The position numbers and the translations under genes were made by a program. From Eledone cirrhosa (Eukaryota): 64,000 nt of DNA. This document shows, piece by piece, positions 1,874-58,577 of the stretch. Numbering within the stretch: position 1 is the first letter of the stretch; each line of letters opens with the position of its first letter. The notes beneath the pieces were generated by a model. The model was not told where the DNA came from. It worked only from the letters and a program-made list of their open reading frames with translations, and searched no databases. The DNA is taken from positions 91,388,001-91,452,000 of the forward strand of contig OZ024741.1 of the NCBI GenBank assembly GCA_964016885.1, given 5' to 3'.

Positions 1874-2222
1874 CAATGATAATAAATGGAAACTATATTT
1901 ATAAAGCCATATTTATTCTATTATATATATTTGAAGGGTACCAAAACTTTGGTACGCCCTCATCAGATAAAATACAAAGTTTGTTTTATAAATGTTGACA
2001 TAAACAGAAAAAATACCTTAATGGTTCAAGTTTTTCCTGGATAGAAAATAGATAGAAAAACTTGAACAGTTAAGGTATTTTTTTCTGGTTATGTCAATAT
2101 TTATAAAACAAACATTGTATTTTATTTGATGAGGGCGTACCAAAGTTTTGGTACTCTTGAAATATATATAATAGAATAAATATGGTTTTATAAATATAGT
2201 TTCCATTTATTTAATATCATTG
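1874..2222. mobile_element. Palindromic PLE-terminus-derived element, family A (copy 1)
   Basis: ~165-bp inverted arms (caatgat...atcattg), homologous to 34745-35087 and 39206-39496. Each arm has a degenerate hammerhead motif: 1914-1974 minus (G12 mutated) and 2118-2178 plus (C3 mutated). Confidence 0.8.
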
Positions 2223-2257
2223 AATAAATATTATGTTGGTTGTATAATTTTGAAAAA

Positions 2258-2507
2258 TTATACACCTCAACAAAATATGTACTTGTCTATACCACACTAA
2301 TTCGGACTGCCTGAAGAGGTCACAGCCAAAGATGGCTGTCACCTAAATATATATAGCAGTAATAAACGAAGGTAAATTTTAAACATTTGACTTTTATTTT
2401 ACTTTATTTTACATTACTCCGGAGTAACCAAACCAACCTGCGCACTTCGTCGAGTGCTCCAGTCTGCATACTGAGGTGTTGGTATACAACCAACATAAAC
2501 TCAAAAT
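2258..2507 (+). mobile_element. Family C PLE-terminus-derived element with degenerate hammerhead (2306-2360)
   Basis: ACTGC CTGAAGA ...ACAGCCA aaga TGGCTGT... tAAA TATATA TA GCAGT; homologous to 57996-58577. A short inverted piece of its own tail lies at ~2231-2246. Confidence 0.75.
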
Positions 2508-3484
2508 GTATATATATATATATATTTACATTTATATATATATATATATATATGTAAATATATATATATGTACATAAATAAATATATGTATATATATATA
2601 TATCTATATCTATGTATATATATATATATTTATGTATATATATATATATATATATATATATCTATGTATATATATATATATATATCTATGTATATATATA
2701 TATATATATATCTATGTATATATATATATATATATCTATGTATATATATATATCTATATCTATGTATATATATATATATATATATATATCTATATCTATA
2801 TCTATGTATATATATATCTATCTATCTATGTATATATATATATATCTATCTATCTATGTATATATATATATATATATATCTATGTATATATATATATATA
2901 TATATATATATCTATGTATATATATAGATATATATCTATGTATATATCTATATATATATCTATGTATATATATATATATATATATCTATGTATATATATA
3001 GATATATATCTATGTATATATCTAGATATATATCTATGTATATATCTAGATATATATCTATGTATATATCTATATATATATCTATGTATATATCTATATA
3101 TATATCTATGTATATATCTATATATATATCTATGTATATATATATATATATATATCTATATACATGTATATATATATGTATATACATATATATATATACA
3201 TATATATATACATATATATATATATATACATATATATATATACATATATATATACATATATATATATACATATATATATATACATATACATATATACATA
3301 TACATATATATATATACATATACATATATACATATATATATATATATATACATATACATATATACATACATATATATATATATATATACATATACATATA
3401 TACATATATATATATACATATATATATACATATATATATATACATATATATATACATATATATATATACATATACATATATACA
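2508..3484. repeat. (TA)n compound microsatellite
   Basis: TA array with tctatg, then CA interruptions. Confidence 0.95.
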
Positions 3485-4090
3485 TGGTGGCTGCCAACTC
3501 GTTTTCGAGTACGGCCACTACTTTATATCCATGTAGGAGAACCCCTACCGATGCGCTGAACGAATGTGACTTTTTAGTCTAGCCAGCGACTTGAAAACTC
3601 TGGTACACTACACTTGTGACAATTATTGACACATAGTGCTGGGCCCATGGTACCATGTGACGACAAGTGCAGAGAGATCTCCAGATATAAAGCAATGCCT
3701 GTGCTGTGAAGCTTTTATAGTGAGCAAAGGCACTGCACAAAGCCAGTCCCACTCTCTTAACCAAGATGATATTTACCAAAAAGAAGAACAAGTCAACATC
3801 ATTGGATACCATCAGGGTTGCAGGTGTTATATCAGAGTTTTCCTTCTCCTAGAATTCTGCCTTGACAAAGGCTAAGGGGTCATCTCTCCCGGTGATTTTG
3901 GATGGCTATTGACTCTTAAGAGCTCCCTTGCCCTTTGACAGGTTTTGTTTTTAGTCCTGCAGGATGTCCAAATCCACCCTCCTCACCAAGAAACCTTGGT
4001 GGGGTTGCCAGTTTAGTCGCCAACGACCCGACCATGAGACAGGTTGTACTGGGATACATGTTACCAGTAGCACCAACTGGTGACCTGACA
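3485..4090 (-). mobile_element. Bipartite non-autonomous RTE-derived element (5' UTR plus 3' end), copy 1
   Basis: Near-identical to 54181-54790. Has an RTE 5'UTR-like motif (ctaggagaaggaaaactctgat), a remnant C-terminal C2H2 ([20 protein letters not shown]) and a 3' stem-loop ctcg aaaa cgag. Flanked by TA repeats. Confidence 0.8.
4008..4086 (-). ncRNA. Putative HDV-like self-cleaving ribozyme at the 5' end of the RTE derivative
   Basis: Minus strand: P1 GGTCAC/(A)TGGTC, P2 CCAGT/ACTGG, L3 with CC pairing to GG (P1.1), P4 TCG-ttgg-CGA, J4/2 C-TAA. Confidence 0.6.
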
Positions 4091-4553
4091 TAACATATAT
4101 ACATATACATATATATATATACATATACATATATATATATACATATACATATATATATATACATATATATATATATATACATATACATATATATATATAC
4201 ATTATATATATATACATATATATATATATATATACATATACATATACATATACATATATATATACATATACATATATATATATACATATACATATACATA
4301 TACATATATATATACATATACATATACATATATACATATACATATATACATATATATATACATATATATATATATATATACATATATATATATACATATA
4401 CATATATATATATATACATATACATATATATATATACATATATATATATATATATATACATATACATATACATATATATATACATATATATATACATATA
4501 TATATACATATACATATATATATATATATATATATATATATATATACATATAC
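4091..4553. repeat. (TA/CA)n microsatellite
   Basis: Direct sequence. Confidence 0.95.
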
Positions 4554-4556
4554 AAT

Positions 4557-54790: not shown

Positions 54791-56340
54791 TAACATACAT
54801 AACATACATACATACATACATACATACATACATACATACATACATACATAACATACATACATACATACATACATACATACATAACATACATGGTGGCTGC
54901 CAACTCGTTTTCGAGTACATATATATATGTATGTATTCGAGTACATATATATATGTATGTTTTCGAGTGTATATATATATGTATGTATATATATATAGAT
55001 ATATGTATGTATATATATATATATATATATATATATGTATGTATATATATATATAGATATATGTATGTATATATATATATGTATGTATATATATATATAG
55101 ATATATGTATGTATATATATATATATATATATATATATATATATATATACATACATATATATATATACATACATATATATATATACATACATATATCTAT
55201 ATATATATATACATACATATATATATATATATATATATATACATACATATATCTATATATATATACATACATATATATATACATATTTATATATATATAT
55301 ATATACATATATATATATACATATATATATATACATACATATATATATACATATATATATATATATATATATATACATACATACATACATATATATATAT
55401 ATACATATATACATACATATATATATATATATATACATATATACATACATATATATATATATATATACATATATACATACATATATATATATATATACAT
55501 ATATACATACATATATATATATATATATATATACATATATACATACATATATATATATACATATATACATACATATATATATATACATACATATATATAT
55601 ATATATATATACATACATATATATATATACATACATATATATATATATACATATATATATATACATATATACATACATATATATATATATATACATATAT
55701 ATATATATATATATACATATATACATACATATATATATATATATACATACATATATATATATATATACATACATATATATATATACATACATATATATAT
55801 ATATATATATATATACATACATATATATATATATACATACACATATATATATACATACATATATATATATATACATACATACATATATATATATACATAC
55901 ACATATATATATATATACATACACATATATATATATATACATACATATATATATATATATATATATATATACATACATACATATATATATATACATACAT
56001 ATATATACATACATACATACATACATATATATATATATACATACACATATATATATATATACATACATATATATATATATATATATATACATACATACAT
56101 ATATATATATACATACATATATATACATACATACATACATACATATATATATATATATATATATATATACATACATACATACATACATACATACATATAT
56201 ATATATATATATATATATTACATACATATATATACATATATATATATATACATATATATATATATATATATATATATTTATATATATACATACATATATA
56301 TATACATATATATATATATATATATATATATACATACATA
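54791..56340. repeat. (TACA/TA)n array containing a 27-bp RTE 3'-end stub (54891-54917)
   Basis: Direct sequence. Confidence 0.9.
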
Positions 56341-56426
56341 TTCCACATAGGAGTGACGGAGTAAATATCGAATAAGGAAAAGCGAAGTAGTTTCAGATGT
56401 TCTATATATATATATATATATATATA

Positions 56427-56670
56427 TGGTGGCTGCCAACTCGTTTTCGAGTACGGCTTCTACTTTATATCCATGTGACTTTTTAGTTCAGCCATTGACT
56501 TGAAAACTCTTGTACAAAGACTAAACTTGCGGCAATTACTGACACATAGAGCTGGGCCCATAGTACCATGTGACGACACGTGCAGAGAGATCTCCAGATA
56601 TAAAACAATGCCTCCGCCGTGAAGCTTTTATAGTGAGCAAAGGCACTGCACAAAGCCAGTCCCACTCTCT
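56427..56670 (-). mobile_element. 5'-truncated copy of the RTE-derived element
   Basis: Homologous to 3485-3758. Confidence 0.8.
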
Positions 56671-57054
56671 TAATACATATACATACATATATATACATAT
56701 ATACATACATATACATACACATATACTTATATATACATATATATACATACACATATACATATATATATATATATATATATACATACATATACATACATAT
56801 ATACATATACATATATATATACGCATACATATACATATATATATATATACATATACATACATATATATACATACATATACATACATATATATACATACAT
56901 ATACATACATATATATATAACATACATATACATACATATATACATACATATATATATATACATACATATATACATACATATACATACATTCATATATATA
57001 TATACATACATATACATACATACATATATATATATATATACATACATATACATG

Positions 57055-57710
57055 CTGCACAAAAGAGGAGGGCCAGCAGCTGACAATAAATGTAGGCTAT
57101 GTAAAACAAAGATCGAGGATGTAAGCCACATTGTTGCCAGCTGCGAAAGAACGTCATCTCGCTACTACCTCCCCATGAGACACGATGGGATAGCTAGAAC
57201 TATCTGCAACGCACTTCGGAAAACAAAATTAACAACAAACGAGGAAGAATATATTGAGACAGATGGCACTAAGGAATACTGGTGGAACCTGAAAATAAAA
57301 ACTGCCACCAAATTAAAGCACAACCGGCCTGATATTGTAGTTTGGGACCACACATTGAAAACGTGTTCTGTTGTGGAGATCAGCTTCCCACTTGATATAA
57401 ACGTTGTCAGAAAAATACAGGAGAAGGAGGACATCTATGGAACATTGATGAGGAGTTCATACCCATCATTATTGGTGCTACGGGTTATATACCAACCCGC
57501 TTGGACCAAAGTATGACTGAACTTGGATTTGCGGACAAAAAGCGCAGCTCCCTAATTCATAGTCTACAAATGGCTGCGATAGCTGGCACCTTCAAAATTT
57601 GCAAAACATTCTTGCGATTCAAGGGATGACAATTTCTTTTCTTTTACAACCTTGCCACCAGGAAGGTGGCCGGTCAAAAAAATATACTCGAAATTAAGAG
57701 AAAGAGAAAA
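57055..57710 (+). pseudogene. R4/Dong-clade retrotransposon 3' fragment (CCHC knuckle + RLE)
   Basis: [50 protein letters not shown]; frameshifted end; in TACA/TA repeat. Confidence 0.88.
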
Positions 57711-57995
57711 CATATATATATACATACATATACATAGATATATACATACATATATATATATACATATATATACATACATATATATATATACATATATATA
57801 CATACATATATACATATATATACATACATATATACATATATATACATACATATATACATATATATACATACATATATACATATATATACATACATATATA
57901 CTTACATATACATGCATATATATATATATATGCATACATATACATACATATATATGTATACATACATATACATATATATATATATATATATATAT

Positions 57996-58577
57996 TTTGA
58001 GTTTATGTTGGTTGTATACCAACAACTCAGTATGCAGGCTGGAGCACTCGACGAAGTGCGCAGGTTGGTTTGGTTCCTCTGGAGTAGTGTAAAATAAAGT
58101 TAAATAAAAGTCAAATGATTAAAATTTAGCTTCGTTTATTACTGCTATATATATTTCAGTGACAGCCATCTTTGGCTGTGACTTCTTCAGGCAGTTTGAA
58201 TTAGTATGGTATAGACAAGTACATATGTTGTTTAGGTGTATAATATTGTCAATACTCTGATATGCCCAGTTCCTTGTTGGGTTGTTAATTCACTGAGGAA
58301 CTGGAGTCATATGTATACATGCATATATATACATACATATATATATACATACATACATGACTCCAGTTCCTCAGTGAATTAACAACCCAACAAGGAACTG
58401 GGCATTTCAGAGTATTGACAATATTATACACCTAAACAACATATGTACTTGTCTATACCATACTAATTCAAACTGCCTGAAGAGGTCACAACCAAAGATG
58501 GCTGTCACTGAAATATATATAGCAGTCATAAACGAAGCTAAATTTTAATCATTTGACTTTTATTTAACTTTATTTTA
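57996..58577. mobile_element. Family C palindromic element with two core-intact hammerheads (58141-58195 minus; 58472-58526 plus) and a ~95-bp one-sided tail
   Basis: ~220-bp inverted arms around a short TA/CA loop; ACTGC CTGAAGA..GAAA TATATA TA GCAGT. Confidence 0.85.

What the first reader, a model, noticed from the sequence alone, without database searches (positions are those of the whole stretch)
1874..58577. Ribozyme-bearing palindromic mini-retroelements with a family-fixed apex and one-sided tail, inserted in (TA)n
Seen: short non-coding hairpins at 1874-2222, 34745-35180, 39206-39596 (family A), 6671-7036 (B), 57996-58577 and 4557-4812 (C). Arms are joined head-to-head, hammerheads point outward, and usually one arm has a 60-95 nt extension. 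All three A copies turn at the same point (just past ..aagtt-tcc) with different junction sequences. Both C copies turn at ctgga(g/a)tcat. Copy-specific variants are shared by both arms of a copy, e.g. gatagcggacc in copy 2 versus gagggcgtacc in copy 1. Known: PLEs carry minimal hammerheads in their pLTRs and leave inverted pLTRs with a tail. Inference: random 5' truncation would not give a fixed apex, so these may be defined short non-autonomous RNAs copied twice per integration by a PLE RT/GIY-YIG. That would be a hairpin-forming ribozyme SINE-like class.
Basis: partly seen in the sequence, partly recalled or inferred. Interest (0 to 1): 0.85.

Follow-up and report, generated by a model that had tools for sequence, protein, structure and literature searches.

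The report
Penelope hairpins stop at transcript start
The hairpins are not a new mini-element class but paired, head-to-head end pieces of three full-length Penelope-like jumping genes; their shared turning point likely marks the capped start of the element's RNA, where two separately primed DNA copies would run off and join, which offers a direct test of how these elements insert.

Summary
The hairpins are real. They are terminal repeats (pLTRs) of three protein-coding Penelope-like element (PLE) families found full-length elsewhere in this 3.0-Gb genome: A and C have Hydra-clade motifs, B looks Neptune-like. The 'tail' is the 5' leader between the pLTR end and the ATG. Inverted pLTR plus one-sided tail in (TA)n is published PLE anatomy, and this scan noted such hairpins in other genomes.

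The apex is preferred, not fixed: 46 of 100 (A), 39 of 81 (C) and 31 of 61 (B) arms start within -8..+18 of one pyrimidine-A site, and almost none just upstream. After A/T-only flanks, 38 of 100 A arms starting there carry an untemplated G (background 15.5%), the signature of a copied mRNA cap. 81 of 91 adjacent pairs join one tailed to one tail-less arm, either arm can be longer, and 17 share no sequence, which fold-back cannot make.

Best model (inferred): both target strands are primed at two internal RNA sites, and the two cDNAs run off at the capped 5' end and anneal. No RNA data were available. Known kind of element, with a new testable mechanistic handle.

The parts
1874..2222 (.). Family A (Hydra-type PLE) inverted pLTR pair. 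Left arm 1874-2044 on -, from +2; right arm 2054-2222 on +, from +9. Both arms tail-less; both HHR cores mutated.
2118..2178 (+). Minimal type-I hammerhead motif of the A right arm (core C3 changed to T)
   Evidence: sequence
2225..2504 (+).
4557..4812 (.). Divergent family C copy: long tail-less arm on - from +1 (4781), plus a short inverted +3..+35 piece at 4780-4812
6671..7036 (.). Family B (Neptune-like PLE) pair: tail-less arm 6671-6821 (-, from +2) and tailed arm 6821-7036 (+, from -1/+1); the arms belong to different subfamily haplotypes
6860..6897 (+). Family B hammerhead motif with U3-A8 core, 4-bp stems I and II and a palindromic helix III
   Evidence: sequence; the U3-A8 variant is described in PMC4209133 passages
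34746..35180 (.). Family A pair: tail-less arm 34746-34912 (-, from +10) and tailed arm 34912-35180 (+, from +2); both HHR cores intact
34983..35043 (+). Intact minimal hammerhead motif, predicted cleavage after 35035 (+126 of the RNA)
   Evidence: sequence
35088..35180 (+). Family A tail = 5' leader between pLTR end (site 1) and second 3' end (site 2); in ORF-bearing copies it continues to the ATG at about +325
39206..39596 (.). Family A pair: tail-less arm 39206-39387 (-) and tailed arm 39394-39591 (+) with an internal deletion of about +61..+116 that removes the HHR
57996..58577 (.). Family C (Hydra-type PLE) pair: tailed arm 57996-58312 (-, from +1), about 44-nt TA/CA spacer, tail-less arm 58357-58577 (+, from +3); HHR cores intact
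22758..22882 (+). Degenerate single family A-like arm (+55..+168)

Best explanation
The hairpins are pairs of pLTR fragments of three ORF-bearing Penelope-like families, likely dead-end insertions made when the element's protein primes both strands of a (TA)n target at two internal sites of its own mRNA leader and the two cDNAs, inferred to run off at the capped transcription start, anneal head to head. SHOWN: each family has two 3' ends (site 1 = pLTR end; site 2 = tail end, 70-100 nt further and upstream of the ATG), one preferred 5' start at a pyrimidine-A dinucleotide (+1), an excess untemplated G before +1 in family A, and one tailed plus one tail-less arm per pair with independent 5' ends. 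INFERRED: +1 is the Pol II start inside the pLTR; the G is the copied m7G cap; a protein dimer starts one cDNA at site 1 and one at site 2 on opposite target strands; the cDNA 3' ends join by microhomology (ATAT/CATATG at +1 in C, HHR stem-II or TATA palindromes, a cap-derived C pairing with a G). Long copies that pass +1 would come from tandem read-through or circular templates, or from template jumps. The ribozyme is a passenger of the pLTR and does not set the apex.
For: Full-length parents. C: L172 has a tailed pLTR, ORF and tail-less pLTR 4.1 kb apart plus an inverted tailed arm; L173 is similar. B: L253, unit 4.9 kb. A: L170, L164, L163. Pfam finds GIY-YIG and RVT_1 in the B ORF; the A/C ORFs give no Pfam hit but carry RW(K/R/C), DKT, RDD, CxCx5C, CxxC and CxH motifs.

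3' ends: 131 of 138 (A), 101 of 104 (C) and 69 of 73 (B) aligned arms end at site 1 or site 2.

5' ends: -8..+18 holds 46 of 100, 39 of 81 and 31 of 61 arms, against 1, 7 and 3 in -60..-9 (p 4e-21, 8e-13, 3e-12). Both tailed and tail-less arms peak there.

Cap G: the base between a 10-nt A/T run and A +1 is G38, T41, A13, C8 in the first 100 of 131 genome matches (counted by eye). The templated base is C or T; background G is 15.5% and C 15.8%; p 4e-8.

Pairs: tailed + tail-less in 34 of 39, 31 of 35 and 16 of 17; among pairs with both ends typed and duplicates removed, 79 of 83 (p 2e-19). Tailed arm longer in 7/2/2 pairs, tail-less longer in 7/7/0, no shared sequence in 7/9/1. Arms share source variants in A and C: 9 of 205 and 4 of 205 discordant vs 0.41 and 0.36 for random pairs.

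No pile-up at the HHR cut: at most 6 of 100 C arms lack the templated sequence upstream of the cut.

Literature: PMC11167929 shows in vitro that a PLE protein cleaves and extends both strands, starts at two internal RNA sites that bound the tail, is a predicted dimer and does not need HHR cleavage. PMC2377424 places the Penelope promoter and start site in the pLTR. PMC11702581 attributes the extra G of full-length L1 insertions to the cap.
Against: No RNA evidence: +1 as start site and the cap are inferred from DNA only. The G excess was tested with a background only in A. In C the ATAT start merges with the TA target (6 G among 43 junction copies). In B, 3 of 9 TA-flanked junctions have G. 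About half of the arms start away from +1. Three C copies have a second arm of only +1..+35 that ends at neither site (window 4780-4812, L121, L188), which fits fold-back or later deletion better. Perfect palindromic junctions in C and the recurrent junction in B fit self-priming as well. Frangieh et al. saw no strand difference in start-site use, so the strict one-of-each pairing has no shown cause. B arms are often not sisters (26 of 107 discordant; own partner among the nearest 5% in 2 of 11 pairs), so one-RNA versus two-RNA use is unresolved. Samples come from the first 30-85 Mb of one contig, and 12 of the 16 extra B loci were picked because they were pairs.
Confidence: 0.68

Rival explanations
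1. Fold-back or self-priming: one cDNA (or an antisense template) folds back at a palindrome and is copied into the second arm; the endonuclease then trims one arm to give the one-sided tail.
For: Proposed in PMC3846280 Discussion from palindromes at inverted junctions. Perfect palindromic apices recur in C and one junction recurs in 8 of 100 listed B arms. A and C arms share rare variants (26 vs 6 and 8 vs 0 in the nearest-neighbour control). Three C copies have +1..+35 second arms.
Against: 17 of 81 tailed/tail-less pairs share no sequence, and in 14 more the tail-less arm extends further 5' than the tailed arm: a tailed first cDNA cannot template that, and a tail-less one cannot supply a tail. 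Some B pairs, including the window copy, carry different subfamily haplotypes. The extra G points to a capped sense template. It may still explain a minority of copies.
Confidence: 0.15
2. One reading: the hairpins are a separate non-autonomous, SINE-like class of short ribozyme RNAs that are transcribed and re-copied as units.
For: High copy number (6,347, 4,617 and 10,949 exact 25-30-mer matches); preferred apex; a +1 arm could keep an internal promoter. Non-autonomous PLE derivatives exist (retrozymes, bioRxiv 10.64898/2026.07.22.740005; MRC1 in PMC8557442).
Against: Arms are collinear with the pLTR and leader of ORF-bearing parents, and many run on into the 3' UTR. Junctions vary between loci; the two locus pairs with the same complex structure share flanks. 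No head-to-tail arrays of the short unit were seen in the sampled loci. Hairpins stop at site 2 and lack the downstream leader; in PMC11167929 RNA downstream of the start sites was required for activity. A predicted helix needing that downstream part is clear only in A (z -2.7; C -1.2; B -0.3), so this point is weak.
Confidence: 0.06
3. +1 is not a transcription start but another discrete stop: a 3' splice site (A has a pyrimidine tract and AG nearby), a strong RT pause at a 5' stem-loop, or an endonuclease cut; the G is terminal-transferase addition.
For: A subfamilies have a polypyrimidine tract followed by CCAG/G or CAAG/G at +7..+9; Penelope pLTRs hold an intron (PMC8557442 passages). The first 45 nt of A and C RNA fold into a hairpin. 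A starts are spread over -8..+18.
Against: Many A arms include 5-8 nt upstream of the AG and begin on the A of (T/C)ACT. C and B stop at CA without a pyrimidine tract-AG. The added base is mostly G rather than A, and G outnumbers the templated C 38 to 8.
Confidence: 0.1

Closest known systems
Insertion units of endonuclease-positive Penelope-like elements: inverted 5'-truncated pLTR plus one-sided tail (Craig et al. 2021 PMC8557442; Arkhipova et al. 2013 PMC3846280)
   Same: Head-to-head pLTRs, tail on one arm, palindromes or overlaps at the junction, minimal HHR in the pLTR, (TA)n targets.
   Different: Tails are 70-100 nt rather than 30-40 nt and lie wholly upstream of the ATG. ORF-less solo pairs are very abundant. 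5' ends pile up at one site with an extra G; the passages read describe 5' ends as variably truncated.
Hydra clade of PLEs (Craig et al. 2021, section 11 and File S1)
   Same: Families A and C: RWK-like motif, DKT, C-terminal GIY-YIG-type domain with CxCx5C linker and CxxC/CxH, canonical HHR, (TA)n insertion.
   Different: Units are about 4 kb because of long 3' UTRs and a linker (published ones generally under 3 kb). The HHR stems differ from the Hydra-1_oBim motif listed in File S2. No tree with reference sequences was built.
Neptune clade of PLEs
   Same: Family B: GLKF, DKG, RT plus C-terminal GIY-YIG (Pfam), CX4CxxC linker, microsatellite targeting.
   Different: Long N-terminal region, U3-A8 HHR; clade not tested by phylogeny.
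Poseidon PAc in vitro system (Frangieh et al. 2024 PMC11167929)
   Same: Two internal RT start sites bounding the tail, both strands extended, AT-rich target, HHR cleavage dispensable.
   Different: Here the start sites lie in the 5' UTR and are about 70-100 nt apart. Genomic pairs use one site each, which the in vitro work did not report.
L1 twin priming and the cap-derived extra G (PMC11702581 passages)
   Same: Second target end primes a second cDNA on the RNA, giving an inversion joined by microhomology; extra G at full-length 5' junctions.
   Different: L1 starts at the poly(A) tail and its two cDNAs cover adjacent, non-overlapping RNA segments. Here both start at fixed internal sites near the RNA 5' end and usually overlap, giving hairpins.
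Non-LTR retrozymes (PMC7229834 listing; bioRxiv 10.64898/2026.07.22.740005)
   Same: Short, non-coding, type-I HHR-bearing, pLTR-related.
   Different: Retrozymes are head-to-tail tandem units; these are head-to-head pairs or single arms, collinear with an autonomous parent.

Membership tests
EN+ Penelope-like elements | ORF with PLE-type RT and GIY-YIG endonuclease linked to the repeat | tested here: met
   ORFs lie between or beside the pLTRs in L172, L173, L253, L170, L165, L168. Pfam GIY-YIG and RVT_1 for B. A and C by motifs only; Pfam gave 0 families for 5 of 5 A/C proteins.
EN+ Penelope-like elements | pLTRs in direct/partial-tandem and inverted arrangement with a one-sided tail | tested here: met
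   L172, L173, L253; 81 of 91 adjacent pairs are tailed + tail-less
EN+ Penelope-like elements | Minimal hammerhead motif in the pLTR | tested here: met
   Core and stems I-III present in A, B and C; stems I and II differ in sequence between A and C yet pair in both. Motif only.
EN+ Penelope-like elements | Hammerhead self-cleavage | not testable with these tools
   Needs an in vitro assay
Hydra clade (families A, C) | RWK and DKT motifs, CxCx5C linker, CxxC and CxH around the EN residues, (TA)n target | tested here: met
   C: RWK and DKT seen; A: RWC/RWR, DKT, CxCx5C, CKLC, CRH against PMC8557442 section 11. The C EN region was not read out in an ORF of 230 aa or more.
Hydra clade (families A, C) | Phylogenetic placement of RT within the clade | not tested
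Neptune clade (family B) | GxKF and DKG motifs, CX2-5CxxC linker before a C-terminal GIY-YIG | tested here: met
   L253/L252 translations; motif definitions from PMC8557442 passages
Neptune clade (family B) | Phylogenetic placement | not tested
   No tree built
Non-LTR retrozymes | Head-to-tail tandem repeats of an HHR-bearing 170-400 nt unit | tested here: not met
   No such arrays in 186 sampled loci; the unit size range is recalled, not from a call
SINE-like non-autonomous element | Own lineage that amplifies as a unit with fixed ends | tested here: not met
   5' ends and junctions vary and a quarter of arms run into the parent's 3' UTR; repeated complex structures share flanks. No genome-wide tree of whole hairpins was made.
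MITE | Symmetric terminal inverted repeats with a fixed TSD | tested here: inconclusive
   Ends are asymmetric (site 1 vs site 2) and belong to a retroelement. TSDs cannot be read in (TA)n: 73 of 91 pairs have TA repeats at both ends, and a non-TA shared string of 6 nt or more was found in 4 of 91.

The most novel reading that the evidence does not exclude
PLE integration is an obligate, asymmetric twin-priming reaction: the two subunits of a dimer each start at a different one of two leader sites, on opposite target strands. The thousands of hairpins are integrated pairs of 'strong-stop-like' cDNAs of capped mRNA, while longer-than-unit copies come from a second template form (circular or concatemeric RNA) that lacks the 5' end. 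Hairpin apices would then map PLE transcription starts from DNA alone in any genome.
Probability: 0.45. Interest if true: 0.7.

Novelty: new member of a known kind. Interest (0 to 1): 0.5.

Why it matters
How PLEs make inverted pLTRs and one-sided tails is stated as open in PMC8557442, and was attributed to self-priming on an antisense template in PMC3846280. Three families from two clades in one genome give the same statistics: two 3' start sites, one of each per pair, independent 5' ends and a pile-up at one site, with a cap-type G in A. These link the in vitro two-site initiation of PMC11167929 to genomic products and give sharp bench predictions. In practice, such hairpins should be annotated as PLE ends, not as MITEs, miRNA precursors or a new SINE class.

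Tried and rejected
The repeat finder on the whole window was swamped by microsatellites. Rfam at E<=1 listed only sub-threshold miRNA-type hairpin matches among the 150 of 571 rows shown, with no hammerhead family. 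Single-strand folding of 7 HHR regions gave the full HHR fold in few of them (z -0.8 to -4.6), as expected for minimal motifs.

The first DNA search ranks by full-length identity, so its 30 loci were not used for apex counts. The first arm-versus-arm test (own partner strictly nearest in 6 of 20, 2 of 19, 3 of 10) suffered from unequal windows and a minimum over many arms; it was redone on alignments.

A control pattern for the G test at a downstream position returned only 2 matches, both with a templated G, and is uninformative; a local background was used instead.

No RNA holder was listed for the C leader. Laying contigs of 4 runs on window 1775-2510 gave only short repeat fragments and no empty site. 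Neither says anything about expression.

An HHR-cut origin of the apex was rejected: predicted cuts lie at +126, +167 and +72, and at most 6 of 100 C arms start at the cut. An assembly fold-back artefact was rejected: arms differ by 0-10% and end at two different conserved sites. An early guess of Naiad for family A was dropped once the endonuclease proved C-terminal. TSD search was uninformative. Leader-structure support is weak outside A.

Full report
OBSERVATION. The six structures are present and far beyond chance. Mapped on natural full-length copies, with +1 defined below: A 1874-2222 has arms from +2 and +9, both tail-less. A 34746-35180 has a tail-less arm from +10 and a tailed arm from +2. 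A 39206-39596 has a tail-less arm from about +1 and a tailed arm with about +61..+116 deleted. B 6671-7036 has a tail-less arm from +2 and a tailed arm from -1. C 57996-58577 has a tailed arm from +1, a TA/CA spacer and a tail-less arm from +3. C 4557-4812 has one long arm and a +3..+35 stub. A further C arm at 2246-2504 starts at +57. Hammerhead motifs read outward. A and C have standard cores, long stem II and a TATATATA helix III, and their stems differ in sequence but pair in both. B has the U3-A8 core that PMC4209133 describes in PLEs (passages). Several window copies have damaged cores.

WHAT THEY BELONG TO. The window lies in a 3.0-Gb assembly. Exact 25-30-mers occur 6,347 (A), 4,617 (C) and 10,949 (B) times, with 0 for the reversed controls. 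Following long copies upstream leads through a 3' UTR (about 1.3 kb in A) into ORFs. L172 shows an inverted tailed arm, then tailed pLTR, ORF and tail-less pLTR (unit 4.1 kb); L173 shows tailed pLTR, ORF and tail-less pLTR. L253 shows the same for B (4.9 kb), and L170 shows the A pLTR and tail running into the ORF. The tail is therefore the 5' leader: site 2 lies about 25-55 nt before the ATG. A and C carry the Hydra-clade motifs listed in PMC8557442 section 11. B has GLKF, DKG, CX4CxxC and Pfam RVT_1 plus GIY-YIG. Clade labels rest on motifs, not on a tree.

SAMPLES. A: all 100 listed matches in genome order on contig C1 (81 loci). C: 81 arms, from the listed matches up to 77.4 Mb. B: the first 30 listed matches plus 17 chosen loci, 13 of them chosen as pairs, so B is enriched for pairs; one B arm did not align and was dropped. 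Two locus pairs are segmental duplicates. The A and C anchors span the HHR cut, so arms starting further 3' are seen only as partners.

3' ENDS. 131 of 138, 101 of 104 and 69 of 73 arms end at one of two family-specific sites, followed by microsatellite.

5' ENDS. Starts within -8..+18 number 46 of 100, 39 of 81 and 31 of 61. Starts in -60..-9 number 1, 7 and 3 (several of the C cases are junction over-alignments). Starts beyond -60 number 24, 21 and 17; the rest lie downstream. An independent listing shows 43 of 100 C arms that contain +1..+22 beginning there (by eye). A sharp upstream edge with a decaying downstream slope is what run-off at an RNA 5' end gives. In all three families +1 is an A preceded by C (T in one A subfamily), an initiator-type dinucleotide (recalled). 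PMC3846280 notes an Inr-like TCACT in a rotifer pLTR, and PMC2377424 maps the Penelope start site in the pLTR.

CAP SIGNATURE. Where 10 A/T bases precede A +1, the intervening base is G in 38, T in 41, A in 13 and C in 8 of the first 100 of 131 matches (by eye). Background in 1.17 Mb of fetched DNA is G 15.5% and C 15.8% (p 4e-8; G vs C p 3e-6). In a wider listing that excludes C, 45 of 79 junction copies have G, though about 20 of these could also come from the partner arm. An extra G marks full-length L1 insertions and is ascribed to capping (PMC11702581). Support in B (3 of 9) and C (6 of 43) is weak.

PAIRS. Of 91 adjacent head-to-head pairs, 81 join a tailed to a tail-less arm, 3 are tailed-tailed (one of these runs on into the ORF leader), 1 is tail-less twice, and 6 have an untyped end. 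Either arm may be longer, and 17 pairs share no sequence. One cDNA folding back cannot give those, so two RNA-templated cDNAs are needed. Junctions often sit on self-complementary motifs: ATAT/CATATG at C +1, stem II of the HHR (L190, L195) and TATA runs (L264). A and C arms come from the same source (discordance 0.044 and 0.020 vs 0.41 and 0.36; shared rare variants 26 vs 6 and 8 vs 0). B arms often do not (0.24 vs 0.44; window copy 5 of 7 discordant). That suggests two RNA molecules at times, or later gene conversion.

RIBOZYME. Predicted cuts are at +126, +167 and +72. At most 6 of 100 C arms lack the templated sequence upstream of the cut, and three of these may be one extra TA. The ribozyme does not define the apex, in line with PMC11167929, where cleavage was dispensable in vitro. 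An earlier scan note on another genome reported starts at the HHR edge (e1-9807999); that is not the pattern here.

MECHANISM. PMC11167929 showed a PLE protein nicking and extending both strands from two internal RNA sites that bound the tail, and predicted a dimer. The genomic data fit this if each strand takes a different site and the cDNAs run to the capped end about 150-320 nt away, then anneal. Copies longer than one unit mostly pass +1. Among 25 A copies holding the leader-ORF junction, about 9-11 extend well upstream of +1, 3-4 start near it and 11 start downstream (by eye). This hints at a second template without a 5' end there, as in the circle model of PMC4209133; it is weak. Short direct reiterations of the first 18 nt in B and of about 33 nt in L016 suggest the RT re-aligns at the template end.

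KNOWN VERSUS NEW. The anatomy is known (PMC8557442, PMC3846280), and earlier notes of this scan called similar hairpins in other genomes ordinary PLE ends. I found no statement of a start-site pile-up, cap G or one-of-each pairing in the texts seen. Searches. The library lacks most subscription papers, including older Penelope structural papers, so this may be in print.

Papers seen: PMC11167929 parts 1-2 of 4; PMC8557442 passages, section 11 and supplement part 2 of 59; PMC3846280 passages and Discussion; PMC4209133, PMC2377424 and PMC11702581 passages; bioRxiv 10.64898/2026.07.22.740005 part 1 of 5 and passages (its supplements are closed); PMC7229834 listing only.

VERDICT. A real feature and new members of known PLE clades, not a new class. 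Interest 0.5, for the mechanistic handle.

Noticed in passing
window 43915-44270 (extension to about 44355): Another hairpin with 108-nt arms at 94% identity, a 140-nt loop and a one-sided extension of about 85 nt, between (TA)n tracts; probably the end of a fourth PLE family. Not traced to a parent.
   Followed up: no
window 61518-62485 (+); L168 3-2318: Fragment 60% identical to a 772-aa RT-GIY-YIG-type ORF seen in L168; a PLE of another family, clade not determined.
   Followed up: partly
window 20013-21062: Inverted A-like tail (20013-20097, -) next to a Hydra-type ORF fragment (20166-21062, 46% identity to the A protein): an older related family with the same inverted-tail arrangement.
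   Followed up: partly
window 46291-49521 (-): 1,076-aa open frame with AP endonuclease and RT (Pfam E 4e-11 and 8e-30): an apparently intact LINE ORF2.
   Followed up: partly
window 4780-4812; L121 1327-1364; L188 767-802: Three C copies whose second arm covers only about +1..+35 and ends at neither start site; unexplained (fold-back stall or deletion at the 5' stem-loop).
   Followed up: partly
G000:C1:24653514, 26137497-26137548, 44844419-44844470; L016 1399-1535: Direct reiterations of the first 18 nt (B) or about 33 nt (A) of the RNA at junctions, like telomerase-style realignment at the template end.
   Followed up: no
L072 about 2030-2048: Junction between two A arms contains two TTAGGG-type telomeric units.
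   Followed up: no
L170 4440-4590; L172 3630-3785: A and C leaders share short motifs on both sides of site 2, and tail sequence can pair with sequence between site 2 and the ATG (12-bp helix in A); a candidate RT-binding structure with weak folding support.
   Followed up: partly
window 1874-2504: The A hairpin lacks its tail and is directly followed by a tailed C arm; either C inserted at the A end or one insertion used RNAs of both Hydra-type families.
   Followed up: no
window 3490-4087 and 54186-54787; 45520-45927; 12504-14266: A 600-bp repeat at 97% identity between TA tracts (partial copies at 8086, 19059, 56432), a 93-bp minisatellite, and a degraded inverted repeat with a 1.6-kb interior.
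   Followed up: no
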